In this document: in pieces, positions 34,021 through 49,018 of the stretch | Position numbering within the stretch: the first letter of the stretch is position 1 | Layout: each line of letters opens with the position of its first letter | DNA from: a virus | Taxonomy: Duplodnaviria > Caudoviricetes | Reading direction: 5' to 3' (one strand) | DNA: 64,000 nucleotides | Virus record (IMG/VR): IMGVR_UViG_3300032038_000044 | Coordinates: 1 to 64,000 of that record | The notes under the pieces: model-generated | What the model was told of the DNA's origin: nothing | Seen by the model: the letters and a program-made list of their open reading frames with translations, nothing else | Databases searched by the model: none | Made by a program: the position numbers and the translations under genes

Positions 34021-34135
34021 TGCACAAAATTTAGGGAAAATGGTTGAAAATTTTTGTGCATAATTGCCTCTTGACAAAATCCCAAGACTATGTTATAATG
34101 GAAAATACTCGCCTTTTTGTGTGCAAAACGGCGAG
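34021..34135 (+). promoter_or_regulatory. Intergenic cassette copy 1 (palindrome, antisense promoter, GC hairpin)
   Basis: TGCACAA 34021, TTGTGCA 34054, TTGACA 34071, TATAAT 34094, stem CTCGCC/GGCGAG. Confidence 0.8.
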
Positions 34136-34158
34136 GGCAGTATAACCCTCGCCCGTCA

Positions 34159-34452
34159 TTATCTAATCACGCTCCATTTTATAGGCTCTTCAATCTCAAT
34201 TTTTACATCAAAGACTACATTATACATACCATGATAACAATCATGTATTATATCCAAATCTTCTAAAACTTCTTCATCTGCTTCATTACATACTGTATAG
34301 ACATTATTATCTGATGTATTCAAATAACAATTATCAGTAATTTTTAAACATAAAGTATCAGGCTTATCATCCCAGACAAAGAAGCCACAATCTAGCTCAT
34401 AAAAAGCTTTTCTTTCAATTTTATTATCCTTTTTCTGTTCAAAATTTAACAT
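34159..34452 (-). CDS. Hypothetical protein
   Basis: SD AAGGAG. Confidence 0.7.
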   Translation of the reverse strand: MLNFEQKKDNKIERKAFYELDCGFFVWDDKPDTLCLKITDNCYLNTSDNNVYTVCNEADEEVLEDLDIIHDCYHGMYNVVFDVKIEIEEPIKWSVIR

Positions 34453-34464
34453 ATATTATCTCCT

Positions 34465-34908
34465 TTATTTCTGCTCAATTATATCCATAGGGTCTCTTTC
34501 ATCTAGAGATAGATGAATATTACCATCATAATCTCTTTTAAGATGGAAGTAACCTACTTCATCACACCCATTAGTCATCATAAGTGACTGTAAGTCGTTC
34601 TCAATTATCATCAATCTAACTGTTTTACCAATGCCATAGGCATATCCACATTCCCAGGCAGTACCTGTGTCTCCATATAGACCATGGCTAATAACCCAGA
34701 CCTCATCAGCTCGTTGTATATCTTCCACATCGTGCTGAAAGACCTTTAGCCCCCATTCCGCATTTGGCATATCCATTCCGCAGTCAACTTCAAAGTCCAT
34801 TGGGAATATAGGTGTAATATCCTCACGGGCGTCAAGTTCTGCTCTAAGGGTCTTTAGAATATCTCTTTCCGTATCATTGAAGAATGGACTAGCAATATAT
34901 ACTACCAT
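34465..34908 (-). CDS. Nucleoside 2-deoxyribosyltransferase-family protein
   Basis: VYIASPFFN, DV.DI..AD.V, DTGTAWECGYAYG. Confidence 0.88.
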   Translation of the reverse strand: MVVYIASPFFNDTERDILKTLRAELDAREDITPIFPMDFEVDCGMDMPNAEWGLKVFQHDVEDIQRADEVWVISHGLYGDTGTAWECGYAYGIGKTVRLMIIENDLQSLMMTNGCDEVGYFHLKRDYDGNIHLSLDERDPMDIIEQK

Positions 34909-35171
34909 TAGAATAAGCCCCCTTTCGTAAGCATTAGTGCGAGTGTTAGACCGGTAAATAATACATCCTTAATCTTATCACTCATAGGTCTGTTAAGTGA
35001 GAATGTTCTATATGACGCGATAATATTCGCTACCAAATAACAACCCTGACCTAACATATAGTTTTTACCAACGAGAACCTGCCCACATATTAGACCTATC
35101 ATAATAATATAGTTGAGATTCTCAAATGCGCGTCTTAAACGCTTTGCTTCACTTTCTTTTCTCTTGTTCAT
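34908..35171 (-). CDS. Small membrane protein
   Basis: Three hydrophobic segments. Confidence 0.7.
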   Translation of the reverse strand: MNKRKESEAKRLRRAFENLNYIIMIGLICGQVLVGKNYMLGQGCYLVANIIASYRTFSLNRPMSDKIKDVLFTGLTLALMLTKGGLF

Positions 35172-35288
35172 ACTTTCTTTTCCTTTCCTTTCTATGTATT
35201 TATTGTATCATAGGTTGATGTGTTTGTCTATTGTGCAAATTGTAGGAAAATGCGGACTTATTTTTGTGCAAAATTTAATTCAATTCCT

Positions 35289-35762
35289 TTATTTATCTTC
35301 TTCATTTCTTGCCCATTCTCCTAACTTCTCTAATATTTCCACAACACGTGGATGTTCATTTGCAAAGTACACAGCCCAAAAGGTTGCCGCCACTTCGTCA
35401 GGTAATTTAAAATATTCCGTCTTTAAAATAGCAACATAGCCATCTATATTATCATCTTCTAAGGCTTCAATAGCTTTTTCAATTTTCTCCTTTTCCGCCA
35501 TTATTTCTTCCTTTTGTTCATCAGATATTCTTGGAAGTGTTATTGAATGACCTATCTCGTGTAATATAGATAAAGCAAAAGGACAATTAACTTTATATCC
35601 AAAAGTTGATTCAATATCTTCATTGAAAGCCCTATCTTGAATTTCATCACAATTTACACGATATGTTAAAGTATCATCATTTTCATCATACTGAAAATCA
35701 TCTCCCTTAACCACATTCTTAATATTGAAATTGCGCTGGATGTATAATTCTAATGTATTCAT
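35289..35762 (-). CDS. HExxH metallopeptidase-like protein
   Basis: ILHEIGH ... PDEVAATFWA; paralogue of 39415-39927. Confidence 0.7.
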   Translation of the reverse strand: MNTLELYIQRNFNIKNVVKGDDFQYDENDDTLTYRVNCDEIQDRAFNEDIESTFGYKVNCPFALSILHEIGHSITLPRISDEQKEEIMAEKEKIEKAIEALEDDNIDGYVAILKTEYFKLPDEVAATFWAVYFANEHPRVVEILEKLGEWARNEEDK

Positions 35763-35828
35763 TTACTTATCTCCTTTCCTTATGTATTTATAATACCATA
35801 AAATTAAGGAAAATGCAACCTAAAAAAA

Positions 35829-35907
35829 TGCACAAAATCACATTTGAAATTTTGTTGAAACTGCCTATTGACAAAAAATTTTGCTCGACTCGAATGAAGT
35901 CGAGCAA
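35829..35907 (+). promoter_or_regulatory. Cassette copy 2 (degenerate; -10 absent)
   Basis: TGCACAA, TTGACA, then directly stem TTGCTCGAC/GTCGAGCAA. Confidence 0.65.
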
Positions 35908-35930
35908 CCCAAAGGTTGCTCTTACCTCAA

Positions 35931-37196
35931 TTAGAGTTCATTAATATGAAGATTGATGATTTCATCAATAGCCTCAATCATAGGTACATCTACTGAACTA
36001 ATATTTACATTGTTTCTATATCTAGCTTCAACAGTAGCACCCTGTTCCTTGTTGAAACGGCAAGTTAAATATGATTTATCTGGACTTCCAATCTTTCGTA
36101 TAAAATAGATATAATTTCTACCCTCAAGAATAGAGCCATCATAGTAATAACCAACACAGTTGTTCTGCTGACGACCCTCATCAATCTTTTCAGCTTGGTT
36201 CTGTGGTACAATTACTATATACCCATCAAGCTTATGAGTATTAATGAAGTTAAGCTTCTGTAACTGAGCGCTCAGTTCTTTATTTCTAAGATTTTCAAGT
36301 AAGTTTTCAGCGTTTCTAATATTTACCCCTAGCGTTCTATTTGTATCTAAAGTGAACTCAAGTTCTTCTTGTCGTAAATCATCTACAACATCTATGAGGT
36401 CTCTAAGAAGCTGACTTATACCATTTAATCTCTCAAAACATATTGTATTTTCAATTACTTTTAATAATTGACTAGGTGGTAATATATCAACCATATTTTT
36501 ATAATTGTTTCTTATATCAAGACACTGAAAGATAAAACCTCTCTCTTTAGCTGAATAGTTAGAATAATCTCTATCCACCTGACACCTAGAAATAGCTATG
36601 CGCCAATTTCTACCATGTATATCTAAATACCTAGAAAAATTTTTAGGCATAACTTTTGGGTCAAAATTGTTACTTTTTAGTTCTTCTATAATAGATTTAA
36701 CTTCTGTAAAGCTAGTTGCATAATTGAAAATCCATTCATAATCAAATAATTTAATAATATCATCAAAAGAATTAAAACCACAATCAACAGTCATTCTGTA
36801 ATTACCAAAGTCATTTTCTTTTGTGATAAAATCATAAGAAAACCGTCTAATCATGTGCATATTTTGAGCTTCAAAATTTAATATGTTCTTATTTTTATAA
36901 AATGACCTATAAGGATTAACTATAGCTATATCTTTAACTATCTCATGTAATGACTTCTTATTTGGGTCATGGTCAACTATATATTTAATAGGAGACGGAT
37001 ATTGTACCTTATATTCAACCTGAAGTCTCTCAAGACTTGCCTTTATTGCTGGAGCATTAACACTACTATGGTCTAACTGTTTACAACAACTCATAGAAAA
37101 TAATGCAACATCAGTTGTAGTAAAATCATTTACTCTTGAAATGATTACCTTTAACATATTATCCAATTCTTTCTTTTCATAATAATTTAATCCCAT
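35931..37196 (-). CDS. PcfJ-like domain protein
   Basis: VPQN..E.IDEGRQQNNCVGYY ... IYFIR C-terminal motif. Confidence 0.75.
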   Translation of the reverse strand: MGLNYYEKKELDNMLKVIISRVNDFTTTDVALFSMSCCKQLDHSSVNAPAIKASLERLQVEYKVQYPSPIKYIVDHDPNKKSLHEIVKDIAIVNPYRSFYKNKNILNFEAQNMHMIRRFSYDFITKENDFGNYRMTVDCGFNSFDDIIKLFDYEWIFNYATSFTEVKSIIEELKSNNFDPKVMPKNFSRYLDIHGRNWRIAISRCQVDRDYSNYSAKERGFIFQCLDIRNNYKNMVDILPPSQLLKVIENTICFERLNGISQLLRDLIDVVDDLRQEELEFTLDTNRTLGVNIRNAENLLENLRNKELSAQLQKLNFINTHKLDGYIVIVPQNQAEKIDEGRQQNNCVGYYYDGSILEGRNYIYFIRKIGSPDKSYLTCRFNKEQGATVEARYRNNVNISSVDVPMIEAIDEIINLHINEL

Positions 37197-37295
37197 TTTT
37201 TATTACCTATTTCCTTTCTTTTCTTGTAAAGATTTCTTACCTCTTCCTTATGTATTCATTATACTACCTCTACCCTCTAATGTCAAACAAAAAAA

Positions 37296-37407
37296 TGCAC
37301 AAATTGCGGGAAAACTTTTTGACATTTTTTATGCAAATTTCCTCTTGACAAAACCGCCTAGGTGTGGTACAATGTTGAATATTGGTCGCGACGCGCGCTA
37401 GCGACCA
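37296..37407 (+). promoter_or_regulatory. Cassette copy 3
   Basis: TGCACAA-N26-TTATGCA, TTGACA-17-TACAAT, stem TGGTCGC/GCGACCA. Confidence 0.8.
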
Positions 37408-37409
37408 AC

Positions 37410-37720
37410 GCAATAAAAAATAGCCACTATCCACCTATTGCAATCAGTGAATAATGACTATTAGTGCGTGGTAGCCAACCACTAGTATGCTCTTCAGCGC
37501 TATTAACCTATAACTAGGGCAGGTTTCGTCACGCAAGAAACCTACAAACTGCCTCAGTGACTTTAGCGAACACTGCTCCGCTGCCCCTATCTTATCCAAG
37601 TTGGCTAACGCTTGGATAACTGCTACTGTCAAGAAGTGTGAGGATTCGGACCTCTAATCCCATATATGACACCCCTAGTTTGTAAGGGGTAGGTAGTCAT
37701 TCCTACCCCTAGCACCTATG
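37410..37720 (-). ncRNA. Structured 3'-UTR or ncRNA candidate
   Basis: Dense hairpins (TTATCCAAG/CTTGGATAA, GGTTTC/GAAACC, AGGGGTAGG/CCTACCCCT) and a tRNA-like minidomain; no SD-led ORF. Confidence 0.45.
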
Positions 37721-37724
37721 AAGA

Positions 37725-38057
37725 TTACTCTGCGAGAGAGTAAGCTGACTTCTTAGCATCCTTTACGACCTTACCAGCCTTAATAAGTCTACCAAGAGAA
37801 GCTGTTACCTTTGGAACTGAGCCAAATGCTTCGACATCCTTTGCAAAGATATTTGTTGGTGACATAGGCTCTGTACCAAGTACGGCAAGTACCTTTTCAT
37901 CAATATTAGCCTGAGCCTCAGCTACCTTTTCAGACTTACCTGAATACTTCTTCACGATAGACTCCTTGAGTGCCTCAAGACGCTCCTTAACCTCTGCATC
38001 ATCAACAACCTCAATTGCTTTCTCAAGTGCTACTTTGTACGAAATTTTCTTTTCCAT
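37725..38057 (-). CDS. Winged-helix-like DNA-binding protein (paralogue of 40204-40542)
   Basis: PMSPTNIF...SVPKVTASLGRLIKAGKV. Confidence 0.7.
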   Translation of the reverse strand: MEKKISYKVALEKAIEVVDDAEVKERLEALKESIVKKYSGKSEKVAEAQANIDEKVLAVLGTEPMSPTNIFAKDVEAFGSVPKVTASLGRLIKAGKVVKDAKKSAYSLAE

Positions 38058-38143
38058 AGTTTTTTCTTCCTTTCTTTTTTGAAAAATGTTTTTGTTTCTT
38101 TACATCTTTATTATATCAGATGTTTTTTACTTTGTCAAGAGGT

Positions 38144-38189
38144 TTTTTGAAATTGTTTTCAAATCTCACTTTGGATTTGTTATCTTTTC
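38144..38189. repeat. 46-bp repeat, copy 1 (second copy at 49360-49406)
   Basis: TTTTTGAAATTGTTTTCAAATC-N3/4-CTTTGGATTTGTTATCTTTTC. Confidence 0.8.
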
Positions 38190-38336
38190 TTTACCTCTTT
38201 ACATTTACTATTATAGCAAATGTTTTGAAGTTTGTCAAGAACTTTTTTTATTTTTTTAATTTTTATTTTTAAGTTCTTTCCTTCACTTCTTGATTAAATT
38301 ATAGCAAAAAATTTTTCAAATTACAATTAGTAATGT

Positions 38337-38449
38337 TGCACAAATTTTAGGAAAAGCCATTGAAAAATTTTGTGCAATTTTTCACTTGACAAAAAGCCTG
38401 GGAGTGTGGTATAATGGAAATATTGCGCGTTTCTTGAGAAAACGCGCAA
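38337..38449 (+). promoter_or_regulatory. Cassette copy 4
   Basis: TGCACAA-N26-TTGTGCA, TTGACA-18-TATAAT, stem TTGCGCGTTT/AAACGCGCAA. Confidence 0.85.
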
Positions 38450-38479
38450 CCAAATAAAAAAGAGGGGTTACCCCCCTCT

Positions 38480-38680
38480 TTATCTGTATGTAACACACAT
38501 AATCTGTTCTATATCAATGTAAAGTGGCATACTACCTTTAAGCCCTTCAAACGAATAACCAGTAATCCTGCCATTAGTAAGGTCTACCTTAGCATAATTA
38601 CAACGTATGCGCAAAGACTTTCCATTTTTAAAAATGATTAATGCACTTTTTATCTTTTTATCTTTCTTTTTACCAAACAT
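38480..38680 (-). CDS. Hypothetical protein
   Basis: SD GAAGGA. Confidence 0.7.
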   Translation of the reverse strand: MFGKKKDKKIKSALIIFKNGKSLRIRCNYAKVDLTNGRITGYSFEGLKGSMPLYIDIEQIMCVTYR

Positions 38681-39192
38681 TAAAACATTCCTTCAAATCC
38701 AATAAGTTTAGCAAATTTTTTTGGCTCTTTTTGAATAAATCCATTATCCTGAAGAAACTCTTTACACTCTTCAATAGGTAGTCTTGATACTACCATATCT
38801 AATGTCCAATGCTCTAATACTATTACTTCTTTTTTGAATTGAAAAACATCATAAGGCTTAAACTTTGTAGTATATATACCAAAGTCATCAAACTCAGCAT
38901 AGTATTTTGGTTTACTTGAGAATAAACCAAATTTAACTTTTTTAGAAATGGTTATTTCTAATTTTTGCTCTAAAGCTGTTTTCCAATTAAAATAATCGTG
39001 GGCGGTATTATAATCACTTATATCTATACCAAGACCAAATAATTCTTTAGCAGGAATTAATTTTGTATCGAAGCTCTCTGGTATTTCTCCATAGCGTGTT
39101 TTTGTTGTAATTATGCTATCAACCCAATCTGATGAAATAAATTCACCATTTTTTAAAAGTTTAATTTCTGTATAATAAATTCCTTTACTCAT
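38680..39192 (-). CDS. Hypothetical protein
   Basis: ORF in operon. Confidence 0.7.
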   Translation of the reverse strand: MSKGIYYTEIKLLKNGEFISSDWVDSIITTKTRYGEIPESFDTKLIPAKELFGLGIDISDYNTAHDYFNWKTALEQKLEITISKKVKFGLFSSKPKYYAEFDDFGIYTTKFKPYDVFQFKKEVIVLEHWTLDMVVSRLPIEECKEFLQDNGFIQKEPKKFAKLIGFEGMF

Positions 39193-39373
39193 ATTCCCTT
39201 ATTTCCTTTCTTAATTTATCGCGGCGGCGACCCTTGCGCCCAGTCTTGTACTTTTCAGAGACCCAAGCGCCGTTTCCGCATTGGTATGGATTGAATTTTT
39301 CCATATCTATAAGTGACTTTTCAATACTATCCATCACTTGAATTGTTTCTCTTCTTTTTCTCTTGTGAGCCAT
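39185..39373 (-). CDS. Small basic hypothetical protein
   Basis: SD AAGGAG before MAHKRKRR. Confidence 0.65.
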   Translation of the reverse strand: MAHKRKRRETIQVMDSIEKSLIDMEKFNPYQCGNGAWVSEKYKTGRKGRRRDKLRKEIREYE

Positions 39374-39414
39374 AACCTTATCTCCTTTACATTTATAATT
39401 ATAGCATAATGCTT

Positions 39415-39927
39415 TTACTCTGTCAAGCACTTTCTATAAAATCTTTTTAATTCTTTTTTGATAAGATTGTCAAAGTGTAACACTTCTTTTCTGTTGTTGT
39501 GGATGTAGTCACAAGCCCACTGAGTAGCCATAAGCTCATCAGCCAAGTGCCAGTAGTAGTTACCTATACTTGGTGTCCATTTTGGTTGCTTACTTAACAT
39601 TTCCTTTACTTCATTACAGTAATCATCTTCACTACTTGTAAGATAATTCTGTGTCATAATGTGACCTACTTCGTGTAATAATGAAAGGGTAAAAATGTCA
39701 ACACCATCAATGTTAAATTCTTCTTTTACAAAGTCCTTAAAAGCCTCGTCAGCTTTATTCTTCATAAGAACAGTATAGAATATTGTATTTGCATCATCGT
39801 GGCAACAACATAAGAAATCATAACTGATTCCACCGCTATTACAACCAAAAGAAGTGATGTATCTATCGACAACCCTTGTAACCTTATGAAGTTCTTTACT
39901 AACCTTATTATCTATTCTCTTACTCAT
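39415..39927 (-). CDS. HExxH metallopeptidase-like protein
   Basis: LLHEVGH ... ADELMATQWA. Confidence 0.7.
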   Translation of the reverse strand: MSKRIDNKVSKELHKVTRVVDRYITSFGCNSGGISYDFLCCCHDDANTIFYTVLMKNKADEAFKDFVKEEFNIDGVDIFTLSLLHEVGHIMTQNYLTSSEDDYCNEVKEMLSKQPKWTPSIGNYYWHLADELMATQWACDYIHNNRKEVLHFDNLIKKELKRFYRKCLTE

Positions 39928-39993
39928 AGGTCTTATCTCCTTCCTTATGTAATCATTGTACTATGAATTGAGGGAATTGTCTAGTCGTCAGAT

Positions 39994-40072
39994 TGCACAA
40001 AGTTCAAATCAAAAATTTGTTGAAATTGCCTATTGACATGAAATACTGTCCGGCGCGCTTGACGTCGGACAG
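39994..40072 (+). promoter_or_regulatory. Cassette copy 5 (degenerate; -10 absent)
   Basis: TGCACAA, TTGACA-TG-AAATAC, stem CTGTCCG/CGGACAG. Confidence 0.7.
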
Positions 40073-40203
40073 CCCAAACCATCAAAGCCCCCTACATTGC
40101 GTAGGGGGCTCTGAAAGGAAGGTATAAGGTTTTTCGTGTTAGAAAAGTGGGGAGGGGAGTTGCACCCCTCTAGCTAGGACTTTCTTCCTCGCCCACCTAG
40201 ACA

Positions 40204-40542
40204 TTAGACAAGCTTGTAGCCTGTCTTTTTACCACTGATAGCAACCTTTTCAGCCTTGCCATCTGCAACAAGTCTTGTAAGTGATGCAGTAACCTTTGGT
40301 ACTGAACCAAGTGCCTCAGCATCCTTTGCGAAGATTGCAGTTGCTGACTGTGGCTCATCAGTAAGGACTGCAAGAACTGCCTCATCAACTGCTGACTGAG
40401 CCTGAGCGACCTTTTCTGACTTTCCTGAATACTTCTTGACGATTGATTCCTTGAGAGCCTCTAATCTCTCCCTTACTTCCCCGTCTGCTACTTCCTCGAT
40501 TGCCTTTTCAAGTGCTACCTTGTAACTCATTTTCTTCTCCAT
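40204..40542 (-). CDS. Winged-helix-like DNA-binding protein
   Basis: Closely similar to 37725-38057 over its full length. Confidence 0.7.
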   Translation of the reverse strand: MEKKMSYKVALEKAIEEVADGEVRERLEALKESIVKKYSGKSEKVAQAQSAVDEAVLAVLTDEPQSATAIFAKDAEALGSVPKVTASLTRLVADGKAEKVAISGKKTGYKLV

Positions 40543-40629
40543 TTTTAATTACCTCTCTTTCTTTTTTAATGGATTTCTTTTTGTTTACATCTTTATTATA
40601 GCAAATTTTTTTAAGTCTGTCAACACTTT

Positions 40630-40741
40630 TTTTTATTTTTTTTAACAGACTTTAGAGGACTGTCAACCACCTAAAACAGTTAGCGTAGCCAACTTCCCAC
40701 CGACCATCCTAGTAGTGCGGTTTCCGCATTTCCTCTTTACA
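40630..40741 (-). ncRNA. Small RNA candidate (~110 nt)
   Basis: Extended -10 TGtTATACT upstream; TGCG-GAAAC-CGCA hairpin; closing stem TTGACAG/CTGTTAA; no ORF. Confidence 0.4.
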
Positions 40742-40785
40742 TTTATAAGTATAACAAATTTTAATTTTCTTTTCTATTGTTAAAA

Positions 40786-40898
40786 TACACAAATTATAGG
40801 AAAAATCTTGGCTGTTTTTTGTGCAATTTTACTCTTGACAAAACTGCCAGGGTATGTTATAATGGTGAATACTGGGCATTTTGCGCGAAAATGCCCAG
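40786..40898 (+). promoter_or_regulatory. Cassette copy 6
   Basis: TACACAA-N26-TTGTGCA, TTGACA-17-TATAAT, stem CTGGGCATTTT/AAAATGCCCAG. Confidence 0.85.
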
Positions 40899-40922
40899 CC
40901 CACTAAAGGCTAGGCATTGGAT

Positions 40923-41318
40923 TTAATCATCATAGCTAAAGTAGTAAACATCAACAACCTTTGTTTTCTCGAATCTTTCTCCATCCTCAGAAGTATAAAC
41001 TACTGTTTCTTGTTTGCAATCACAATAACTTTTTTTAAGTCTTACCCTTTTATCTGGAAAGGCTTTCATTAAGGCTTTTCCAATTAAACTGAGTCTTTCT
41101 TTAGGATTAAAACTACGGTCATTGTCAATACTATTTTCTATTGTTTTTGATAGAACATAGTTACCAGTAAGTTTTGAAATATCTCTAGCAGTAAAATTCT
41201 GTGTATCGTCATTTTTTAGTTTCTTTAATGCAGATACTAATAAATCTAGTGTTTTTTCATTTATTTCTCTTAATGCTGTTCTTCTACTCATCCTCTTCAC
41301 ACTCCTCTTCATTATCAT
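40923..41318 (-). CDS. Hypothetical protein (possible wHTH)
   Basis: FTARDISKL; similar C-terminal beta tail to 41284-41850. Confidence 0.65.
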   Translation of the reverse strand: MIMKRSVKRMSRRTALREINEKTLDLLVSALKKLKNDDTQNFTARDISKLTGNYVLSKTIENSIDNDRSFNPKERLSLIGKALMKAFPDKRVRLKKSYCDCKQETVVYTSEDGERFEKTKVVDVYYFSYDD

Positions 41319-41850
41319 TATACACTTCTTTTACTTTTTTTACAGCGCAAAAACAGTGTTCACTCTTACCTCTAAAAAGTACACTTCCATCATCGCCATA
41401 ATATTTCTTTTTATTTGGCTTTAACTTGTATGTTACTTCATAACCGAGTTCTTCACTCTTCCAATAAGGAAGTTCACTTTGATGTATAAGTTTGCGCTCA
41501 AGTGTTTTAAGAGAAGTGAAACTAATGTTTGCATTTTTATAAATCTCTTCCGGTGTAAAATACTCGCTAGGATTCTTTGCTAAAAATTCAAGACATTTTT
41601 TGTTTTCATCCTTAAGTATCATACCTATGTACTCTGTAATCTCTGCCTCATTCATCTTAGTTAATAATGAAATAGTTGCAGGTTCAATATCATCTTCACC
41701 AACCCAAGCAGAAAAATTATCATCTTCTACTAAATATTCTACCCTATATGTATATTCAGTATCAGTAATTTTGACAATTTGCCCCTCTAATAATCTACCT
41801 ATTGACCTTGTCATAATAACTTCGTCATTTACTTCATATTGAATTTTCAT
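41284..41850 (-). CDS. Hypothetical protein (SH3-like plus wHTH-like)
   Basis: Start MKIQYEV after SD GAAAAGG. Confidence 0.65.
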   Translation of the reverse strand: MKIQYEVNDEVIMTRSIGRLLEGQIVKITDTEYTYRVEYLVEDDNFSAWVGEDDIEPATISLLTKMNEAEITEYIGMILKDENKKCLEFLAKNPSEYFTPEEIYKNANISFTSLKTLERKLIHQSELPYWKSEELGYEVTYKLKPNKKKYYGDDGSVLFRGKSEHCFCAVKKVKEVYNDNEEECEEDE

Positions 41851-41903
41851 ATTTTTTACCTTTTCCTTTCTTTCCTTTATTATACGCTCTTGGCTTGAGG
41901 TTG

Positions 41904-42365
41904 TCAAGCCAATTTGCGTAAAATTTCAATAATATTTTCATTTGCATCAATGGTGTCGCCATTTTTCCAATTAACTCGGTTTGGTTCTTCATCATCAACT
42001 AAGATGCCTGTACCATATCTCTCACAGATAGCACTCTTATCAGTTCCGTATGGAACTATGATGACTTCATCAAGTAAGTCCATTATGAGATACTTTCTTA
42101 ACCAATTCCTCTTTGCAAGGTCTATCTGCTGAGCATATATCTTATCACAACTTCTTGATAACCAAGATATAACTCCTAACTTATATCCCTTTGACTTGAG
42201 GTCAGCGAGAACTTCCAAGAACTCAACAAGAGGATAGATAACCTTTGCTTTAACGTATGGGCGGACACGCTTGTTATTGAGGTCGTCTAACCAACCATCT
42301 ACACCATAGAAGTCAGCGAGTGTACCATCCATATCAAACCATACCCATTTGCTTTCCTTATTCAT
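41904..42365 (-). CDS. HAD-superfamily 5'(3')-deoxyribonucleotidase-like protein
   Basis: FDMDGTLADF motif I; K; ILVDD motif IV. Confidence 0.85.
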   Translation of the reverse strand: MNKESKWVWFDMDGTLADFYGVDGWLDDLNNKRVRPYVKAKVIYPLVEFLEVLADLKSKGYKLGVISWLSRSCDKIYAQQIDLAKRNWLRKYLIMDLLDEVIIVPYGTDKSAICERYGTGILVDDEEPNRVNWKNGDTIDANENIIEILRKLA

Positions 42366-42447
42366 AACCCTTATCTCCTTTCCTTATCTTATGTACTCAT
42401 TATATACCCTTACACCCTACCCCGTCAAGCATTTTCACATAAAAAAT

Positions 42448-42560
42448 TGCACAAAATGCGGGAATGGCGGCGAGGGAACTTTGTGCAAGATTACCATTGA
42501 CAAAACACCAAAGGGGTGGTATAATTGAAAATACTGCCCGTTTGGAATGCGAACGGGCAG
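42448..42560 (+). promoter_or_regulatory. Cassette copy 7
   Basis: TGCACAA-N26-TTGTGCA, TTGACA-17-TATAAT, stem CTGCCCGTT/AACGGGCAG. Confidence 0.85.
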
Positions 42561-42585
42561 CCAATCACTCAAAAAAGGGGTAGAC

Positions 42586-42858
42586 CTAGGTCCAGCCCCT
42601 TTCCCGCTTTATTTCCTCATAGCGTTTCTCATTTTCTTCTTTTATCTTCTCTTGGTCATATACTCTCATCTTGAGCTTAGTGTAGCCATACTTGTAAAGG
42701 TCAGCTTTAGTCCAGTACCTCTTTTGACAAATCTTGCCAAGCGCCTTTGGCTTGTAGTCGATTCCTTTATTCTTCAACCATTCTTTTGTTGGTACTTCGA
42801 CTAATGTACTAACTGGCTTGTATCCTTTTGAACTAAAAACTGTAACCTGTACTTTCAT
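42586..42858 (-). CDS. Hypothetical basic protein
   Basis: SD AGAGG before MKVQV. Confidence 0.7.
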   Translation of the reverse strand: MKVQVTVFSSKGYKPVSTLVEVPTKEWLKNKGIDYKPKALGKICQKRYWTKADLYKYGYTKLKMRVYDQEKIKEENEKRYEEIKRERGWT

Positions 42859-42919
42859 TACTTTACCTCTTTTCTTTTGATAAATCAATTATACCATACT
42901 TTGAATAGGGTGTCAACCC

Positions 42920-43324
42920 CTATTCAAGTTCAATGTATTGTATCGCATCAGCAACCTTCTTTGAATAATGACATTTCATAAAAGGGCTATTCACTGAATA
43001 CTTGTAATTAGCAACCTTTTTGTTATACTCAGTAACCTTATCATAGAAAGTAGTTTTTGAAATATCTTCATAGGTTGATTTCATAGCTTTTGCCTGGGCT
43101 GTTAATGTTTGATACTCTACTTGATATTCTGTTATTGTTTTATCTTGATTATACTTTGTGTGTACGTCTATAATATCTAAGACACTTATTATAAGTACAG
43201 CACCAAAGATGATACCAAAAAAGAGACATATAGTAAACGTCATATCTGCATCATTATGATATGCCCTAAACATAAGTACAACCATTAATAAAACTGCAAT
43301 ACCTGATAAAATTTCAATTAACAT
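42920..43324 (-). CDS. Membrane-anchored protein
   Basis: Two TM segments plus coiled C-terminus. Confidence 0.7.
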   Translation of the reverse strand: MLIEILSGIAVLLMVVLMFRAYHNDADMTFTICLFFGIIFGAVLIISVLDIIDVHTKYNQDKTITEYQVEYQTLTAQAKAMKSTYEDISKTTFYDKVTEYNKKVANYKYSVNSPFMKCHYSKKVADAIQYIELE

Positions 43325-43339
43325 TTTCTTTACCTCACT

Positions 43340-43498
43340 TTACTTTTCATTCATTAAAGCCTTATATGTTCTATATATATAATCGGCTTTATGCGTATTT
43401 CTTACAAGTTCCTTAAACCATACAACCCTTATAGAGTTCGCGCCATACTTGGCAACTAGGTCATTTATCAATTCGTCTTTTGTTATTTTCTTTTTCAA
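43340..43498 (-). CDS. Small hypothetical protein (52 aa, TTG start; not in ORF track)
   Basis: SD GGAAGGTGG; KKKITKDELINDLVAKYG... Confidence 0.55.
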   Translation of the reverse strand: MKKKITKDELINDLVAKYGANSIRVVWFKELVRNTHKADYIYRTYKALMNEK

Positions 43499-43584
43499 TC
43501 TACCACCTTCCTTATTTTATTCTTCTTTCCTTACCTTATGTACCCATTATACACCCTCACCAATGTCATTACAAGGTGTAATAA

Positions 43585-43698
43585 TGCACAAAATTGCGGG
43601 AGTTTCATCACTAATCTTTGTGCAACTTTCTACTTGACAAAACCACCCAAACCATGTTATAATAGAATTTACTGGTCGTTTGGAAAGCGAACGACCAG
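43585..43698 (+). promoter_or_regulatory. Cassette copy 8
   Basis: TGCACAA-N26-TTGTGCA, TTGACA-18-TATAAT, stem CTGGTCGTT/AACGACCAG. Confidence 0.85.
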
Positions 43699-43723
43699 CC
43701 CAAGAAAGACTGGTCGTAATTCT

Positions 43724-44143
43724 TCATAAGCAAAGAAAACTAAGTGAGTAAATATGGTTTGGCTCTAAATTTTCAAATGCTTTGCTTGTGTTAGGAAAAG
43801 CTGGAAGCCAGACAACGTCATATCCCCAGATGCCACCATTAAGTGAAACATATCTTTGATTGTATAAAATTTGAAGAACATATTCAAAATTATTTTTTGG
43901 CGGTCTGCCTGGGCGATTCCTAGTTATTGGTTGTTTTAATTTTCTAATACCGGCAACTTTGTTTCTAAAAGGTGCAATAATATTCTTTATATATTCTCTC
44001 TCTTCTTCTGTGAGTACGTTTCTTCTTTCGCAAAGTGGAGCATCAAAGAAATTTTCTCTTGTATTACCATAGCGCCCCTCTTCTTTATCTTTTTTGGAGC
44101 GACCTTCATATCCAGTCCACTCGATGTATTCTTTTTCTTTCAT
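43724..44143 (-). CDS. Hypothetical protein (paralogue of 45174-45578)
   Basis: VL...E..Y....I.PFR.K ... LP.F ... Y.L..L.L. Confidence 0.7.
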   Translation of the reverse strand: MKEKEYIEWTGYEGRSKKDKEEGRYGNTRENFFDAPLCERRNVLTEEEREYIKNIIAPFRNKVAGIRKLKQPITRNRPGRPPKNNFEYVLQILYNQRYVSLNGGIWGYDVVWLPAFPNTSKAFENLEPNHIYSLSFLCL

Positions 44144-44413
44144 TTAAGCCACCACCTCTCTGCGTTCTGCCCTAAGTTCCTTAATTGACTTAGGACGCTC
44201 TTTCCACTTGCCAAGTTCATCATCGAGTATCTGCTCAAAGACGCTTGGTCTATACACAAAACCCTCTTTGGCAGGTGTAATCGGTTTAAACTTACCCTTA
44301 CAACCGAATGGCTCATTGACCGGTACTAACTTGACCTGTTTAACAGTATCATTAGCGACCTCATTATAATTTGTTGTTACATCATTACCCTTTACATAAA
44401 ATACAGTTCTCAT
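44144..44413 (-). CDS. Hypothetical protein
   Basis: SD GAGG. Confidence 0.7.
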   Translation of the reverse strand: MRTVFYVKGNDVTTNYNEVANDTVKQVKLVPVNEPFGCKGKFKPITPAKEGFVYRPSVFEQILDDELGKWKERPKSIKELRAERREVVA

Positions 44414-44469
44414 ACCTTAAATCCTCACTTTTATTTTTTTCTTTATTATATCATGGGGGTGACTAATTG

Positions 44470-44901
44470 TCAACCCTCATGTTCATTAATTTCTTTCTTA
44501 ATTGCATTGATAGCAATTAAAATCTGTTCTTCAATAGTCGCACAAGTATTCTCATAGCTGAAAGATGTTTCATCCTTTATAGCCTCGATATATGACATTA
44601 TCTCGCCAAGGTCGAAATAGTCCATCTCAAGCTTTGCAAGGTTAATACCCTTGACAATATCAAGACCATCTTCATCCTCACCCTCAAGGTATCCAACATA
44701 CATCCAACGAGCATCCTCTTCTGATTCATCATAGAATGTAATATACATTCCATCAAGAAGATTGTCTATAACGACTTTATTCTGTGCAACCTTTTTAGCA
44801 ATTTCTCTTAATAACTCACAAGCATTAACAAAAGCAACATTATATGCAAGTCTATCAAGCTCCTCATTATACTTCTTCATCATTTCTCCAAAAATACTCA
44901 T
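44470..44901 (-). CDS. Acidic hypothetical protein
   Basis: SD AAGGAAGG. Confidence 0.7.
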   Translation of the reverse strand: MSIFGEMMKKYNEELDRLAYNVAFVNACELLREIAKKVAQNKVVIDNLLDGMYITFYDESEEDARWMYVGYLEGEDEDGLDIVKGINLAKLEMDYFDLGEIMSYIEAIKDETSFSYENTCATIEEQILIAINAIKKEINEHEG

Positions 44902-44975
44902 AATTTTGTACCTTCCTTCCTTAACTTTGTAAGCTAATTATACACCCTAGCATGTAAATAAGTCATCTGACAAAA

Positions 44976-45090
44976 TCACCAAAATAATGGGAACTTGTTT
45001 GTTAAAATTTGTATAATTTTCCCTCTTGACAAAACACCCTAACCTGTGGTATAATAGAAGCACTGCGCGTTTGAAGTGAAAACGCGCAGC
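44976..45090 (+). promoter_or_regulatory. Cassette copy 9 (degenerate palindrome)
   Basis: TTGACA-18-TATAAT, stem CTGCGCGTTT/AAACGCGCAG. Confidence 0.8.
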
Positions 45091-45173
45091 CCAATCTCTC
45101 GGACTGCCTCGCTCTCACACGACTTATTTTTGGTTAGGTAGTCGCCAAACCTAGACCTTAAAGGCGGTCGCGC

Positions 45174-45578
45174 CTATAACCCGAGGTCTTTTAGTGTGTA
45201 CTTTGTTCCTATATCCATACCTTTATACATATTGCTTTTGCCACTAAAGTATGGAAGGCAAACATGGTCTTTCTGAAGTTTAATCAGTATATAGTATTCA
45301 CCAAAGCTGTGCTGTTTTGAAATGTATTCAATCTTACTTCTAAAAGGTCTGATAACATCACTTAGATATTTCTTCTCAACGGCGTCAAGCACCGGTGTGT
45401 GATATTCTTTGTTGAGAAAGTCCATTTCTCTTTTATCACAACTAACGCTATAACATCCATAATGCTCATCGTGACTACCCTCAATAACGCTCTTTAGAAC
45501 TTCTCCGTCTATGTTATAGGCTAACACTTCCTTTACAAACTGTGGATGTTCTTTGATAATTACTTCAAAATTTGTCAT
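45174..45578 (-). CDS. Hypothetical protein
   Basis: Paralogue of 43724-44143. Confidence 0.7.
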   Translation of the reverse strand: MTNFEVIIKEHPQFVKEVLAYNIDGEVLKSVIEGSHDEHYGCYSVSCDKREMDFLNKEYHTPVLDAVEKKYLSDVIRPFRSKIEYISKQHSFGEYYILIKLQKDHVCLPYFSGKSNMYKGMDIGTKYTLKDLGL

Positions 45579-45582
45579 TCTC

Positions 45583-45900
45583 TTATTCCTCACTCTCACT
45601 TAATAATGTGTATGATACATATTTATCATCACTTTTCTTTGCAGTATCTTCGCAATCGAGCTTAACTCGAACCTCTGCCCCACACTGAAGCTCGTCTGAG
45701 TCAAACTCAATACGTTCTCCGTTGTTAGCAAGTACAGTAATCCAACCATTAACGTCAGTGATAACTGTGCCATCAACGTATCTATAATCTGTGGTTGCCT
45801 TGTATAATCTGCCAACTACCCATAAACCAGCTACTAATACAATAGTAGTAATAACTATACTAATGATACCGAATACTCTGTCAACTTTCTTTGTTTCCAT
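45583..45900 (-). CDS. Membrane-anchored protein with small beta domain
   Basis: One N-terminal TM segment. Confidence 0.7.
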   Translation of the reverse strand: METKKVDRVFGIISIVITTIVLVAGLWVVGRLYKATTDYRYVDGTVITDVNGWITVLANNGERIEFDSDELQCGAEVRVKLDCEDTAKKSDDKYVSYTLLSESEE

Positions 45901-46068
45901 AACCTTACCTCACTTATTTTCTTTAATTTATTATAGCAAATTTTTTTAAGTTTGTCAACAAGGGAATTACTAAGGTTGACTTTTCAAACTATGCTACTGA
46001 GTGCCATTCTGTTCCCTCTTGACATTATTAAGTATAACAAAACAAGAGAGAGAATACTACTGGCAAAA

Positions 46069-46182
46069 TGCACAAAATTGCGGGAGGGGGCGACACCTAG
46101 GTTTGTGCATTTTTGCCATTGACAAAACCTCAGGACTGTGGTACAATGCAAATTACTGCACGCTTGGGGCGCGAGCGTGCAG
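46069..46182 (+). promoter_or_regulatory. Cassette copy 10
   Basis: TGCACAA-N27-TTGTGCA, TTGACA-17-TACAAT, stem CTGCACGCT/AGCGTGCAG. Confidence 0.85.
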
Positions 46183-46233
46183 CCCAATAAAAAATGGCTC
46201 GGAGTTTCACCGAGCCGTGGAGGAGGATTATGC

Positions 46234-46542
46234 CTAGCAGTAAACTAGGCTCATGTCTGCCCATTTTAGGATGCTGATTTGCTGACAATCTCTGCCGACT
46301 CTCAGCGCCTTTGTCTTGGTTGGTTCGCGGTGGCTTTTGTCGATGTAGTAAATGCCCTTGCTAAACCATACACCACAATTTCCATTGTATTCCTTGATGG
46401 CTTTCATAGCTTCCTCAGGTGTCTTGCACTCGACACCCTCTGTCGCTACTTGATAACCGGTCTTAAACTTAACGCGCTTACCATTCTTTAAAGTCATTCC
46501 GTCATCTTCCTTTAAGTTCTTAATACTTCTTACATTTATCAT
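46234..46542 (-). CDS. Hypothetical protein
   Basis: SD GGAAGG. Confidence 0.7.
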   Translation of the reverse strand: MINVRSIKNLKEDDGMTLKNGKRVKFKTGYQVATEGVECKTPEEAMKAIKEYNGNCGVWFSKGIYYIDKSHREPTKTKALRVGRDCQQISILKWADMSLVYC

Positions 46543-46615
46543 AGGTTTGTACCTTCCTTTCCTTACCTTGTAACTACATTATAGCACGACACCCCACCGA
46601 GGTCCATAGGCAGAT

Positions 46616-46728
46616 TGCACAAAAATCGGGATACCCTTTAGCCTAAGTTTGTGCAAAATGCCCCTTGACAAAACACCCTGGGTGTGTTATAATGTGCGGC
46701 ACTGCTCGCTGCGCAAGTTTGCGAGCAG
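46616..46728 (+). promoter_or_regulatory. Cassette copy 11
   Basis: TGCACAA-N26-TTGTGCA, TTGACA-17-TATAAT, stem CTGCTCGC/GCGAGCAG. Confidence 0.85.
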
Positions 46729-46864
46729 CCAAACAAAAAAATAGGCTCCCGCCTCAGCGAGTGCCTATAAATTAGTGGTTTTTATCCCAGCCCACCCTGG
46801 TGGCTCATACTCTGTTTTAGTTGCGCCGATTACCTGGCTACAACAATTTGGAAGGTAGGTTATG

Positions 46865-47008
46865 TCAACCCACAGGAAGAACCTGTGGTGTTGTATGCTT
46901 ATAGTAGTCCTTGAAGTCCTCTCTAGCCTTCTTCTCAACTCTTTCAGTTTCAAGCATTAAGAGCATCTTATCAAGTTCATCCATGTTATTATCAAATCCG
47001 TTCATCAT
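46865..47008 (-). CDS. Small protein (47 aa; DELDKML family)
   Basis: SD GAGG; near-duplicate at 47561-47701. Confidence 0.7.
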   Translation of the reverse strand: MMNGFDNNMDELDKMLLMLETERVEKKAREDFKDYYKHTTPQVLPVG

Positions 47009-47083
47009 AATTTTTATCCTCACTTTCTTCCTTAACCTTATGTCTACATTATACACTTTGTTGGGGGTGTTGTCAACACCTTT

Positions 47084-47302
47084 TTAGAAAATTCTTGTAA
47101 AACTTTTTCCGCTTTCAAAAGTACGGGTTGCACTGATTACCTTAGTTGTTGACTCATAACCAAGTACAGTAACCTTTCTGTTAGCTAATGCGCTAATGAA
47201 GTTGTCAGCATTGGCGTTAAGCTCCTTATTAGAGTTGAAGTTAATTCTCCTTGTCTTTATGCCGTTGCCATCTGTAAACTTAATAACTAAACTTGTCATC
47301 AT
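47084..47302 (-). CDS. Hypothetical protein
   Basis: SD GAAAGGTAGG. Confidence 0.7.
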   Translation of the reverse strand: MMTSLVIKFTDGNGIKTRRINFNSNKELNANADNFISALANRKVTVLGYESTTKVISATRTFESGKSFTRIF

Positions 47303-47374
47303 AACTGTTACCTACCTTTCCTTACCTTGTAACTACATTATAACAGAGGGTCAGAGCAAAATCCATATGTAAAT

Positions 47375-47488
47375 TGCACAAATTTCGGGATGGTTTTTGC
47401 TTTACTATTGTGCAAAATCAACAAACAAATATATCATATATCGCCTATATATCTAAAATGCGGCGCGTTTGGGGTGATAACGCGCCGC
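47375..47488 (+). promoter_or_regulatory. Cassette copy 12 (promoter degenerate)
   Basis: TGCACAA-N26-TTGTGCA; stem GCGGCGCGTT/AACGCGCCGC. Confidence 0.7.
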
Positions 47489-47560
47489 CAATCAAAAAAG
47501 GGCGCTATATGCGCCCCAGTGCGTGTTATTTGTTAGAGGTCACGCTCCCCGGAAGGTAGG

Positions 47561-47991: not shown

Positions 47992-48042
47992 ATATAACCT
48001 TCTTCCTATCTATTGGTAGGTAGGGGCTTACGCCCCTAGCCT

Positions 48043-48525: not shown

Positions 48526-48583
48526 AACCTTATCTCCTTATTAATATCTATGTGGTAGGTAGAGGGCTTTCGCCCTCTAGCCT

Positions 48584-48979: not shown

Positions 48980-49018
48980 AATATTATAACCTACCTTTCT
49001 TATCCTTAGTGGTAGAGG

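What the first reader, a model, noticed from the sequence alone, without database searches (positions are those of the whole stretch)
34021..47488. Twelve copies of an intergenic cassette firing an antisense SigA promoter into a covarying GC hairpin
Seen: between minus-strand genes, a fixed order recurs: minus-strand promoter, TGCACAA-N26-TTGTGCA, 9-10 nt, TTGACA-17/18-TA(T/C)AAT on the plus strand, ~8 nt, (A)CTG-stem-loop-stem-CAG-CC(C)AA, then the upstream gene's terminator. Stem sequences differ in almost every copy yet always pair (TCGCC, GCTCGAC, GGTCGC, GCGCG, GTCCG, GGGCA, GCCCG, GGTCG, GCGCG, GCACGC, GCTCGC, GCGCG), which is strong covariation. Copies 2 and 5 lost the -10 but kept the hairpin; copy 12 lost the promoter. 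No SD/ORF follows the plus-strand promoters. Established precedent: T4-type PeSL (promoter-early stem-loop) cassettes mediate gene shuffling, but there the promoter drives the gene. Inference: an array of ~40-70-nt hairpin sRNAs (decoys for defence or RNA-binding proteins, RNAP sinks or insulators), or DNA cruciform/recombination sites making each gene a swappable cassette.
Basis: partly seen in the sequence, partly recalled or inferred. Interest (0 to 1): 0.86.

Follow-up and report, generated by a model that had tools for sequence, protein, structure and literature searches.

The report
Backward promoter-hairpin boundary modules in phage
Between the early gene blocks of this uncultured rumen/gut phage sit 13 copies of a fixed module: a perfect host-type promoter that points backwards and has no gene behind it, fused to a 27-base GC hairpin. 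Hundreds of related phage sequences share the design, which most likely fences neighbouring transcription units off from each other, although no RNA data exist to show this.

Summary
There are 13 modules, not 12; the extra one is at 31929. Twelve hairpins are exactly 27 nt and are followed by CC(C)AA. Nine sit 6-8 nt behind a consensus plus-strand sigma-A promoter with an extended -10, which is preceded by TGCACAAA-N~26-TTTGTGCA. Pairing is kept through changes on both sides (0/500 shuffles).

The design belongs to a whole phage family. It occurs in 104 IMG/VR stretches and 55 gut/rumen Clostridia MAG contigs. About 60% of these "box" promoters fire straight into such a hairpin, always against the small-gene blocks.

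New here:
- A recurrent variant without a -10 turns the hairpin into a canonical gene-sense terminator.
- Face-to-face promoter pairs share one hairpin.
- There is no G·U versus A·C bias, and RNA stability is equal on both strands.

The hairpin therefore works in both senses. My best reading (about 40%) is a transcription-unit boundary: a fail-safe terminator plus a head-on promoter whose own short RNA is capped by the same hairpin. A functional small-RNA family (about 25%) and a recombination seam (about 8%) are not excluded.

No transcript data could be obtained. The scan has noted the same design before on other phage DNA. I found no published description; the closest known thing is the PeSL cassette of T4-type phages.

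The parts
31876..31955 (+). It has a TTTGTGCA-like box at 31876-31882, a decayed promoter and the 27-nt hairpin at 31929-31955, followed by CCAG.
   Evidence: flagged as terminator-like on the minus strand
31966..31990 (-). Gene-sense terminator T1 of module 0: an A-run, a hairpin and a T-run, so it could work in both directions.
34021..34135 (+). Module 1. Box inverted repeat at 34021-34060, backward promoter at 34071-34099, and an atypical 28-nt hairpin at 34108-34135 whose 3' arm overlaps the terminator of gene 34159-34452.
35829..35907 (+). Module 2, the variant without a -10. Left box at 35829-35835, TTGACA at 35868-35873, an A-run, and the hairpin at 35881-35907. On the minus strand it reads as hairpin plus AAUUUUUUGUC. 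It is the only terminator-like element behind gene 35931-37196.
   Evidence: (D14)
37296..37408 (+). Module 3. Box inverted repeat at 37296-37335, backward promoter at 37345-37373 and hairpin at 37382-37408. A forward 12/12 promoter at 37286-37258 abuts the left box.
38337..38449 (+). Module 4. Box inverted repeat at 38337-38376, backward promoter at 38386-38415 and hairpin at 38423-38449.
38459..38481 (-). Terminator T1 of module 4.
39994..40072 (+). Module 5, the variant without a -10. Left box at 39994-40000, TTGACA at 40033-40038 and hairpin at 40046-40072.
   Evidence: (D14)
40086..40110 (-). Terminator T1 of module 5.
40786..40898 (+). Module 6. Box inverted repeat at 40786-40825 (the left box has one mismatch), backward promoter at 40835-40863 and hairpin at 40872-40898. 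There is no T1, and the stop codon of gene 40923-41318 lies 24 nt away.
42448..42560 (+). Module 7. Box inverted repeat at 42448-42487, backward promoter at 42497-42525 and hairpin at 42534-42560.
42574..42602 (-). Terminator T1 of module 7.
43585..43698 (+). Module 8. Box inverted repeat at 43585-43624, backward promoter at 43634-43663 and hairpin at 43672-43698. There is no T1. A third arm, CTGGTCG at 43710-43716, can pair with the hairpin's 3' arm instead.
45026..45089 (+). Module 9. Backward promoter at 45026-45055 with decayed boxes, and hairpin at 45063-45089. There is no adjacent T1.
46069..46182 (+). Module 10. Box inverted repeat at 46069-46109, backward promoter at 46119-46147 and hairpin at 46156-46182.
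46194..46218 (-). Terminator T1 of module 10.
46616..46728 (+). Module 11. Box inverted repeat at 46616-46655, backward promoter at 46665-46693 and hairpin at 46702-46728.
46741..46768 (-). Terminator T1 of module 11 (a weak hairpin).
47375..47487 (+). Module 12. Box inverted repeat at 47375-47414, no consensus promoter, and hairpin at 47461-47487 (CGG...CCG, then CCAAT).
47500..47516 (-). Terminator T1 of module 12.

Best explanation
Each module is a boundary (insulator) between early transcription units that use the host sigma-A RNA polymerase.

Read in the direction of the genes (the minus strand), a gene block ends as follows:
- usually an ordinary terminator (T1);
- then UUGG(G);
- then the 27-nt GC palindrome;
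- then a U-rich stretch, which is the complement of the backward promoter's discriminator and -10 (typically AAUUUUCC-AUUAUA);
- then the backward promoter, the two TTTGTGCA boxes, and the forward promoter(s) of the next block.

Inferred mechanism:
(a) The palindrome acts as a fail-safe, or in four copies the only, terminator or attenuator for polymerases coming from the upstream genes.
(b) The consensus backward promoter loads polymerase head-on at the same spot. Read-through polymerases are then blocked or dislodged before they can occlude the next forward promoter.
(c) The backward transcript starts 0-3 nt before the palindrome. It therefore carries the same hairpin at its 5' end, has no ORF, and is short or harmless.

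Shown here: the anatomy, its fixed geometry, its conservation across a phage family, its backward orientation, and its symmetry between strands. Not shown: any transcript, any termination, any interference.
For: - Position and orientation. In the window and in related loci, every unit sits between blocks of one to five small genes and points against them.
- The hairpin survives loss of the promoter. Four of 13 copies in the window lack a working promoter yet keep 9-11 bp stems. Across relatives, 35 distinct copies have box + TTGACA + A-run + hairpin. They average 5.2 A in the 8 nt before the hairpin, which is a canonical U-tract in the gene sense.
- An independent scan flags the hairpins at 31929, 35881, 38423 and 45063 as terminator-like on the minus strand, and none on the plus strand.
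- Four copies (35881, 40872, 43672, 45063) are the only hairpin between the upstream stop codon and the next promoter.
- Symmetry between strands. G·T equals A·C, 9 against 9 among 830 pairs. Mean RNA folding energy is -16.8 kcal/mol in the plus sense and -16.6 in the gene sense over 163 copies, p = 0.37. This is expected if the hairpin must fold in transcripts of both directions.
- The stem sequences vary and have no long match elsewhere in the genome, so the RNA has no conserved seed.
- T1 is built for the gene sense only: 5.0 A upstream against 2.5 T downstream of 8. The backward RNA therefore has no dedicated terminator of its own.
- Established precedent: the stem-loops of PeSL cassettes act as terminators or attenuators between strong early promoters (PMC2839356).
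Against:
- In most copies that carry a promoter, the gene-sense U-tract is weak. Examples are UGCCGCAC at 46702 and tail scores of 0.9-3.0.
- Where T1 is present, a second terminator seems superfluous.
- A polymerase sitting on the backward promoter covers the palindrome DNA, so roles (a) and (b) compete rather than add.
- The promoter is as strong as a promoter can be, and it carries a special upstream box used mainly for hairpins (101 of 169). The hairpin centre sits at a fixed 20-21 nt after the -10. This looks like selection for making this RNA, not just for blocking.
- Face-to-face pairs lie in long non-coding stretches, for example L168 6998-7265, and are not simple gene ends.
Confidence: 0.4

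Rival explanations
1. The modules are genes for a family of small RNAs. A dedicated class of immediate-early "box" promoters makes abundant RNAs of about 35-80 nt. Their 5' hairpin protects them from 5'-end-dependent decay. They would act through their shape, as a decoy or sponge for a host or phage RNA-binding protein or nuclease, or as cis-antisense RNAs against the 3' end of the upstream message, as lambda OOP, RatA and SR4 do.
For: - The promoters match the consensus perfectly, with TG before the -10 and a GG discriminator.
- 101 of 169 distinct box promoters lead straight into a hairpin. Only 24 lead directly to a gene without one, and those use a different leader.
- The hairpin starts within about 3 nt of the predicted transcription start, with its centre 20-21 nt after the -10. 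This is the geometry known to stabilise RNA 5' ends (established knowledge, not tested here).
- Predicted RNAs fold into two hairpins with z-scores of -4.7 and -5.7.
- Some relatives share the loop motif C-R-A-C-C-C-A across different stems.
- In the window, 9 of 13 hairpins are more stable in the plus sense, by up to 5.4 kcal/mol.
Against: - No strand bias across the family.
- The stems differ in almost every copy, and no complementary target was found in the genome.
- There is no conserved 3' end and no plus-sense terminator.
- Copies without a promoter keep the hairpin.
- The strict backward orientation at gene-block ends is not needed for a trans-acting RNA.
Confidence: 0.25
2. The backward promoter exists for the sake of the promoter region itself. 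Back-to-back transcription around the two TTTGTGCA boxes keeps the forward promoter active, either through local negative supercoiling or through a shared box-binding factor. The hairpin merely neutralises the unwanted backward transcript.
For: - The back-to-back geometry is fixed, with the boxes 8-11 bp upstream of each -35 and 23-27 bp apart.
- Forward promoters next to the left box have weak -35 elements (TTGTAA, TAGACA, TGGACC).
- The non-coding promoter region is about 70-75% conserved across phages, about as well as the few coding stretches that also match.
Against: - Variants without a -10 kill the backward promoter, yet the boxes and forward promoters remain.
- Most gene blocks also have a second forward promoter, a full consensus match with an A-tract upstream element, that needs no help.
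- This reading gives no reason for a fixed 27-nt palindrome.
Confidence: 0.12
3. The modules work at the DNA level. The palindromes and repeated modules would be recombination seams that shuffle gene cassettes, as PeSL cassettes do. Alternatively they would be hairpin or cruciform sites recognised by a structure-specific enzyme, or primer or R-loop sites for replication.
For: - The arms are near-perfect Watson-Crick matches, about 98%. Such perfect arms fit a constraint acting on the DNA itself. From general knowledge, not tested here, DNA-level correction of quasi-palindromes could also maintain them.
- The paralogous genes 37725-38057 and 40204-40542 are flanked by modules that match other modules rather than each other (repeat families D1, D3 and D14).
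- Face-to-face pairs look like two modules joined at the palindrome.
Against: - No recombinase, integrase or HUH enzyme was seen in the region.
- There are no conserved core sites or extrahelical bases of the attC type.
- The tight coupling to the -10 and to the transcription start is unexplained by this reading.
- No relative is close enough to map breakpoints; the best match is 69% nucleotide identity.
Confidence: 0.08

Closest known systems
PeSL (promoter-early stem-loop) cassettes of T4-type phages RB49 and phi1 (Arbiol et al. 2010, PMC2839356)
   Same: Both are repeated intergenic cassettes in the plastic early region. Both combine a consensus host-type promoter with a stable stem-loop that is thought, and in one PeSL case shown, to stop upstream transcription. 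Both flank small genes of unknown function.
   Different: In PeSLs the promoter points forwards and drives the next gene, with an SD and ATG at its 3' end, and the stem-loop overlaps or precedes that promoter. Here the hairpin is joined to a promoter that points backwards and has no gene. It sits at a fixed distance after the -10, has a fixed 27-nt size, and comes with a TTTGTGCA box pair. The phage lineage (a large phage that shares its marker proteins with gut/rumen viral contigs and with contigs binned into Clostridia MAGs) and the host are unrelated.
Tandem or fail-safe intrinsic terminators
   Same: A GC hairpin lies behind a gene's stop codon and behind a first terminator, and is followed by a U-containing tract in the gene sense. 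The variant without a -10 is a textbook terminator.
   Different: Most copies have a weak, interrupted U-tract. The conserved 5' flank UUGG(G) and the fused antisense promoter are not terminator features.
3'-overlapping cis-antisense RNAs: lambda OOP against cII, and RatA/txpA and SR4/bsrG of Bacillus prophages
   Same: A strong promoter with no gene lies convergent to the 3' end of a gene, and the predicted RNA is short and structured.
   Different: Those are single loci in which a defined overlap forms the working duplex. Here there are 13 copies per genome, and the conserved part is a hairpin of variable sequence. Where T1 is present the overlap is often only the shared terminator.
Face-to-face (convergent) promoter pairs that act by transcriptional interference, such as coliphage 186 pR/pL
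   Same: Some related phages place two consensus promoters head to head with only the hairpin between their starts.
   Different: In this window the convergent partner is a whole gene block rather than a second nearby promoter. No switch function is evident.

Membership tests
PeSL cassette (T4-type phages) | Consensus sigma-70-type early promoter | tested here: met
   Nine plus-strand promoters match the consensus at 11-12 of 12 positions, all with TG before the -10.
PeSL cassette (T4-type phages) | The promoter drives the adjacent downstream gene (SD and start codon at the 3' end of the cassette) | tested here: not met
   No SD or ORF lies behind the backward promoters, and they point against the genes.
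PeSL cassette (T4-type phages) | The stem-loop terminates or attenuates transcription from upstream | tested here: inconclusive
   Four of 13 copies are terminator-like on the gene strand, and variants without a -10 are canonical terminators. No functional assay was possible.
PeSL cassette (T4-type phages) | Recombination between cassettes shuffles genes or makes mini-circles | not testable with these tools
   The only hint is modules exchanged around paralogous genes. No close relative was available.
Intrinsic (Rho-independent) terminator, gene sense | GC-rich hairpin directly followed by a U-rich tract | tested here: inconclusive
   The hairpins are very stable, -11 to -19 kcal/mol. The tract passes the scan in 4 of 13 copies, and tail scores range from 0.9 to 3.0.
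Cis-antisense small RNA of the OOP, RatA or SR4 type | Own promoter convergent to the target gene, and a defined transcript overlapping its 3' end | tested here: inconclusive
   The promoter is present. No dedicated plus-sense terminator exists: the mean is 2.5 T of 8 after T1. The extent of overlap is unknown without RNA data.
Integron attC site | Conserved R''/R' core (RYYYAAC / GTTRRRY), extrahelical bases, and a nearby tyrosine recombinase | tested here: not met
   The hairpin ends are YTG/CAR or CGG/CCG, and the stems are perfect. No integrase domain was found in the region.
REP/BIME elements with a RAYT transposase | Conserved palindrome sequence with a GTAG-type 5' tetranucleotide, and a RAYT gene | tested here: not met
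   Stem sequences differ in nearly every copy. No such gene was seen.
Promoter-proximal antitermination RNA (nut, put) or Q-type late promoter | Downstream operon on the same strand whose expression depends on read-through | tested here: not met
   There are no plus-strand genes until 49867, and these have their own consensus promoter at about 49788.
Any Rfam family | Match to a curated covariance model | tested here: not met
   Only one chance-level hit, E = 0.57, in 20 kb.

The most novel reading that the evidence does not exclude
A large family of gut and rumen phages, apparently of Clostridia, may own a dedicated class of immediate-early promoters, marked by the TTTGTGCA box. The main product of these promoters would not be a protein but a set of 5'-triphosphate, hairpin-capped small RNAs of fixed 27-nt geometry and free sequence. 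These RNAs would act through their shape, as decoys or sponges for a host RNA-sensing or RNA-degrading factor, or as cis-antisense destabilisers of every early message. That would be a new kind of phage small-RNA system, repeated 10-15 times per genome.
Probability: 0.2. Interest if true: 0.8.

Novelty: new variant of a known kind. Interest (0 to 1): 0.55.

Why it matters
If the boundary reading is right, these phages show a compact natural insulator that has not been described: terminator, palindrome and head-on promoter in about 110 bp. It would explain how dense arrays of maximal-strength promoters are kept from interfering with each other, and it could be reused in synthetic circuits for Firmicutes. 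If the RNA reading is right, it is a new and very widespread family of phage small RNAs.

Either way, the TTTGTGCA-box promoter class and the fixed 27-nt palindrome are easy markers for the early regions of a large uncultured phage group: 104 viral stretches and 55 MAG contigs matched one exact pattern. The question can be tested directly with a cloned module and a Bacillus or clostridial RNA polymerase.

Tried and rejected
- Close relatives: megablast of the region against cultured and deposited phages found nothing. A distant search with one module found only weak hits to the uncultured gut phage Phass-1 and to a fecal contig. No cultured phage carries the module.
- First collection scan: the promoter-only pattern was too unspecific and the scan was wasted.
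- Rfam: no match.
- Trans targets: no shared or complementary word of 10 nt or more between the hairpins and the rest of the genome, apart from box-like words in two loops.
- Thg1 idea: a hairpin with a recessed 5'-triphosphate end and a CCC overhang resembles a substrate for the phage's Thg1-like enzyme. However, only 1 of 5 related genomes with modules has a Thg1 homologue, and among those at least 90% complete only 1 of 4. Rejected.
- tRNA-minihelix or CCA-end mimicry: the tail alternates between CCCAA and CCAA, and nothing defines a 3' end. Not pursued.
- CRISPR-repeat mimic: the stems vary and the host is unknown. Not testable.
- Late-gene antitermination: the rightward genes have their own promoter. 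Rejected.
- Strand of function from wobble pairs and folding energy: no bias.
- Breakpoint mapping: no relative above about 70% nucleotide identity.
- The genome-contig scan returned only MAG and uncultured-bin contigs, no cultured isolate, so no model host was found.
- Pfam and PHROGs on 30 proteins gave no candidate hairpin-binding or box-binding protein.

Full report
**What the window is.** The window is the first 64 kb of an 89-kb IMG/VR viral contig estimated to be 61% complete. It has low GC, 24 tRNA genes, and a terminase about 45% identical to those of Enterococcus phages H1 and VRE9_4 and Geobacillus virus E3. From about 49.3 kb leftwards, essentially all genes lie on the minus strand. 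The rightward genes start at 49867 with a sigma-factor-like protein behind their own consensus promoter. The finding covers the first 16 kb or so of the leftward block. That stretch holds small genes, mostly of unknown function, among them a nucleoside deoxyribosyltransferase, a PcfJ-like protein and HAD-like proteins.

**Checking the observation.**
- The inverted repeat TGCACAA-N-TTGTGCA occurs 7 times exactly, all on the plus strand in the region, against 0.01 expected.
- Nine plus-strand promoters match the sigma-A consensus at 11-12 of 12 positions. All have a TG extension, and all begin TTGACAAAA.
- Each promoter is followed after 6-8 nt by a GC hairpin and then CC(C)AA.
- I found a 13th copy at 31929, outside the given range.
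- Twelve of the 13 hairpins are exactly 27 nt long.
- On an alignment of the 13 copies, 95.8% of cells pair and 8 of 10 pairs change on both sides. No shuffle out of 500 reaches the observed covariation, and shifting the register drops pairing to 34-48%.
- No plus-strand ORF with a ribosome-binding site follows the promoters, and Rfam has nothing.

**The module is a family trait.**
- The exact pattern box-N23-27-box-N8-11-TTGACA hits 104 stretches of IMG/VR contigs, mostly 80-400 kb long. It also hits 55 contigs binned into gut and rumen MAGs, chiefly Clostridia such as Acutalibacteraceae, Oscillospiraceae, Lachnospiraceae and Ruminococcus. None is a cultured isolate.
- In these loci the usual form is TATAAT-GGAAAATT-CG[stem-loop-stem]CG-CCAAA. 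Hairpin length peaks at 27 nt, with 25 and 29 nt next.
- The hairpin centre lies 20-21 nt after the -10.
- Positions 1-3 and 6-7 of the stem are semi-conserved. The consensus is CGG..CG; in this phage it is YTG..CG.
- Of 169 distinct box promoters, 101 fire straight into such a hairpin. Only 24 lead directly to a gene without a hairpin, and those use a different leader.
- In loci with several units (L225, L152, L130, L208), the units point against runs of one to five small genes.
- Two early proteins of the window (153 aa at 41904-42365 and 240 aa at 33140-33862) recur in 46 and 44 of these loci, so the phages are related.
- Earlier notes of this scan describe the same design in several other genomes.

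**The inverted repeat is two boxes.** TTTGTGCA sits 8-11 bp upstream of the backward -35. Its mirror copy sits the same distance upstream of a forward promoter, which is usually weaker in its -35 (TTGTAA, TAGACA, TGGACC; a full consensus at 37286). The core is therefore a back-to-back promoter pair. Most gene blocks have a further forward promoter with a full consensus match and an A-tract upstream element.

**New evidence on which strand matters.**
- Stems are 98% Watson-Crick. G·T and A·C mismatches are equally rare, 9 against 9 in 90 box units and 34 against 23 in all 186.
- Over 163 distinct promoter-linked hairpins, RNA folding energy is the same on both strands (-16.8 against -16.6 kcal/mol, p = 0.37). 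In this window 9 of 13 copies favour the plus sense.
- The hairpin outlives the promoter. Four copies in the window lack a working promoter but keep 9-11 bp stems.
- Copies 2 and 5 belong to a recurrent variant: box, TTGACA, 6-8 nt of A-rich sequence, then the hairpin. It has 35 distinct members across phages and reads in the gene sense as hairpin plus AUUUUUUGUCAA, a textbook terminator. The junction fits a deletion between the AAAAT words that follow the -35 and the -10 (inference).
- A simple scan calls four of the 13 hairpins terminator-like on the minus strand and none on the plus strand.
- Four copies are the only hairpin behind their gene.
- The ordinary terminator T1 next to the hairpin is built for the gene sense, with 5.0 A before it and 2.5 T after it, of 8. 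The backward RNA therefore has no reliable stop of its own.
- In other phages, 26 pairs of promoters face each other with only the hairpin between their predicted starts. There the palindrome begins both transcripts.

**Interpretation.** The hairpin is constrained in both orientations, is tied to gene-block ends, and survives without its promoter. This supports a role in stopping gene-sense transcription. The backward promoter is nevertheless clearly selected. It matches the consensus perfectly, has a special upstream box, and sits in fixed register, so that its RNA starts at the foot of the hairpin.

The reading that covers most facts is a boundary module: a fail-safe terminator fused to a head-on promoter, whose own RNA is hairpin-capped and goes nowhere. 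I hold this at about 40%, for four reasons:
- the U-tract is weak in many copies;
- a polymerase on the backward promoter would cover the palindrome;
- most box promoters serve hairpins, which looks like selection for the RNA itself;
- face-to-face pairs are not simple gene ends.

A functional small-RNA family, acting by shape as a decoy or as a cis-antisense RNA, stays at about 25%. Promoter coupling stays at about 12%, and DNA-level roles at about 8%.

**Comparison with known systems.** PeSL cassettes of T4-type phages are the closest precedent. They too are strong early promoters with stem-loops that attenuate upstream transcription in plastic regions. The defining forward promoter-gene link is not met here, however, so this is a new variant rather than a member. 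Intrinsic terminators, OOP-type antisense RNAs, attC, REP, nut/put/Q elements and Rfam families were each tested feature by feature; the results are in the membership table. Two full-text searches found no paper describing the TTTGTGCA box or the backward promoter-hairpin design.

**Limits.** All functional statements are inferences from sequence. No transcript data, no cultured host and no close relative were available.

Noticed in passing
Its hairpin at 31929-31955 has a centre reading TTTTGCACAAAA, which contains the box word itself. Its promoter has decayed, and a bidirectional terminator follows.
   Followed up: partly
window 35231-35271: A further inverted repeat, TTGTGCAAA-N24-TTTGTGCAA, lies in the opposite arrangement to the usual pair and has no hairpin. 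A forward promoter at 35230-35202 lies next to it.
   Followed up: no
window 35908-35921, 40909-40919, 43699-43716: In three of the four modules that lack a separate terminator, a third copy of the hairpin's 5' arm lies 6-15 nt beyond the hairpin and 4-10 nt from the upstream stop codon. This allows an alternative pairing like that of an attenuator. Across the family such third arms occur in 10 of 196 units, against 3 in each control.
   Followed up: partly
L168 6900-7300, and 25 other pairs in related loci: Face-to-face consensus promoters are separated only by the hairpin, with 33-38 bp between the -10 hexamers in most pairs. Some stand in tandem inside long non-coding stretches full of TTTGTGCA boxes.
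   Followed up: partly
window 37725-38057 and 40204-40542: These paralogous genes are 73% identical as DNA. The modules flanking them match other modules (35829-35913 with 39994-40078, and 37292-37426 with 40782-40916) rather than each other. This hints that genes and modules have been reshuffled.
   Followed up: no
window 49867-50913: The first rightward gene matches a phage sigma-factor family (E = 3e-47) and has a zinc-ribbon-like C-terminus. It sits behind a host-type promoter at about 49788. Homologues lie in 25 of the loci that carry modules.
   Followed up: partly
window 38143-38219 and 49360-49436: A conserved 77-nt leader lies behind forward promoters. The two copies are 70% identical, and similar stretches occur in many related phages. 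Its function is unknown.
   Followed up: no
window 48016-48042, 48556-48582, 49009-49031: A different repeated hairpin family (GGTAGGTAGGGGC...GCCCCTAGCC) lies between genes of the promoter-less leftward operon. It sits directly before each ribosome-binding site and has no U-tract in the gene sense. It may be an intercistronic processing or stabilising hairpin.
   Followed up: no
window 13790-16016 and 25798-26715: The phage encodes a Thg1-like protein (E = 3e-31), an Rnl1-type RNA ligase and a second RNA ligase. Only one of five related genomes that carry modules has a Thg1 homologue.
   Followed up: partly
related loci (e.g. L130, L135, L148, L152, L185, L188): A subfamily of hairpins in different phages shares the loop and closing motif GG-C(A/G)ACCCA-TC on otherwise different stems.
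   Followed up: no
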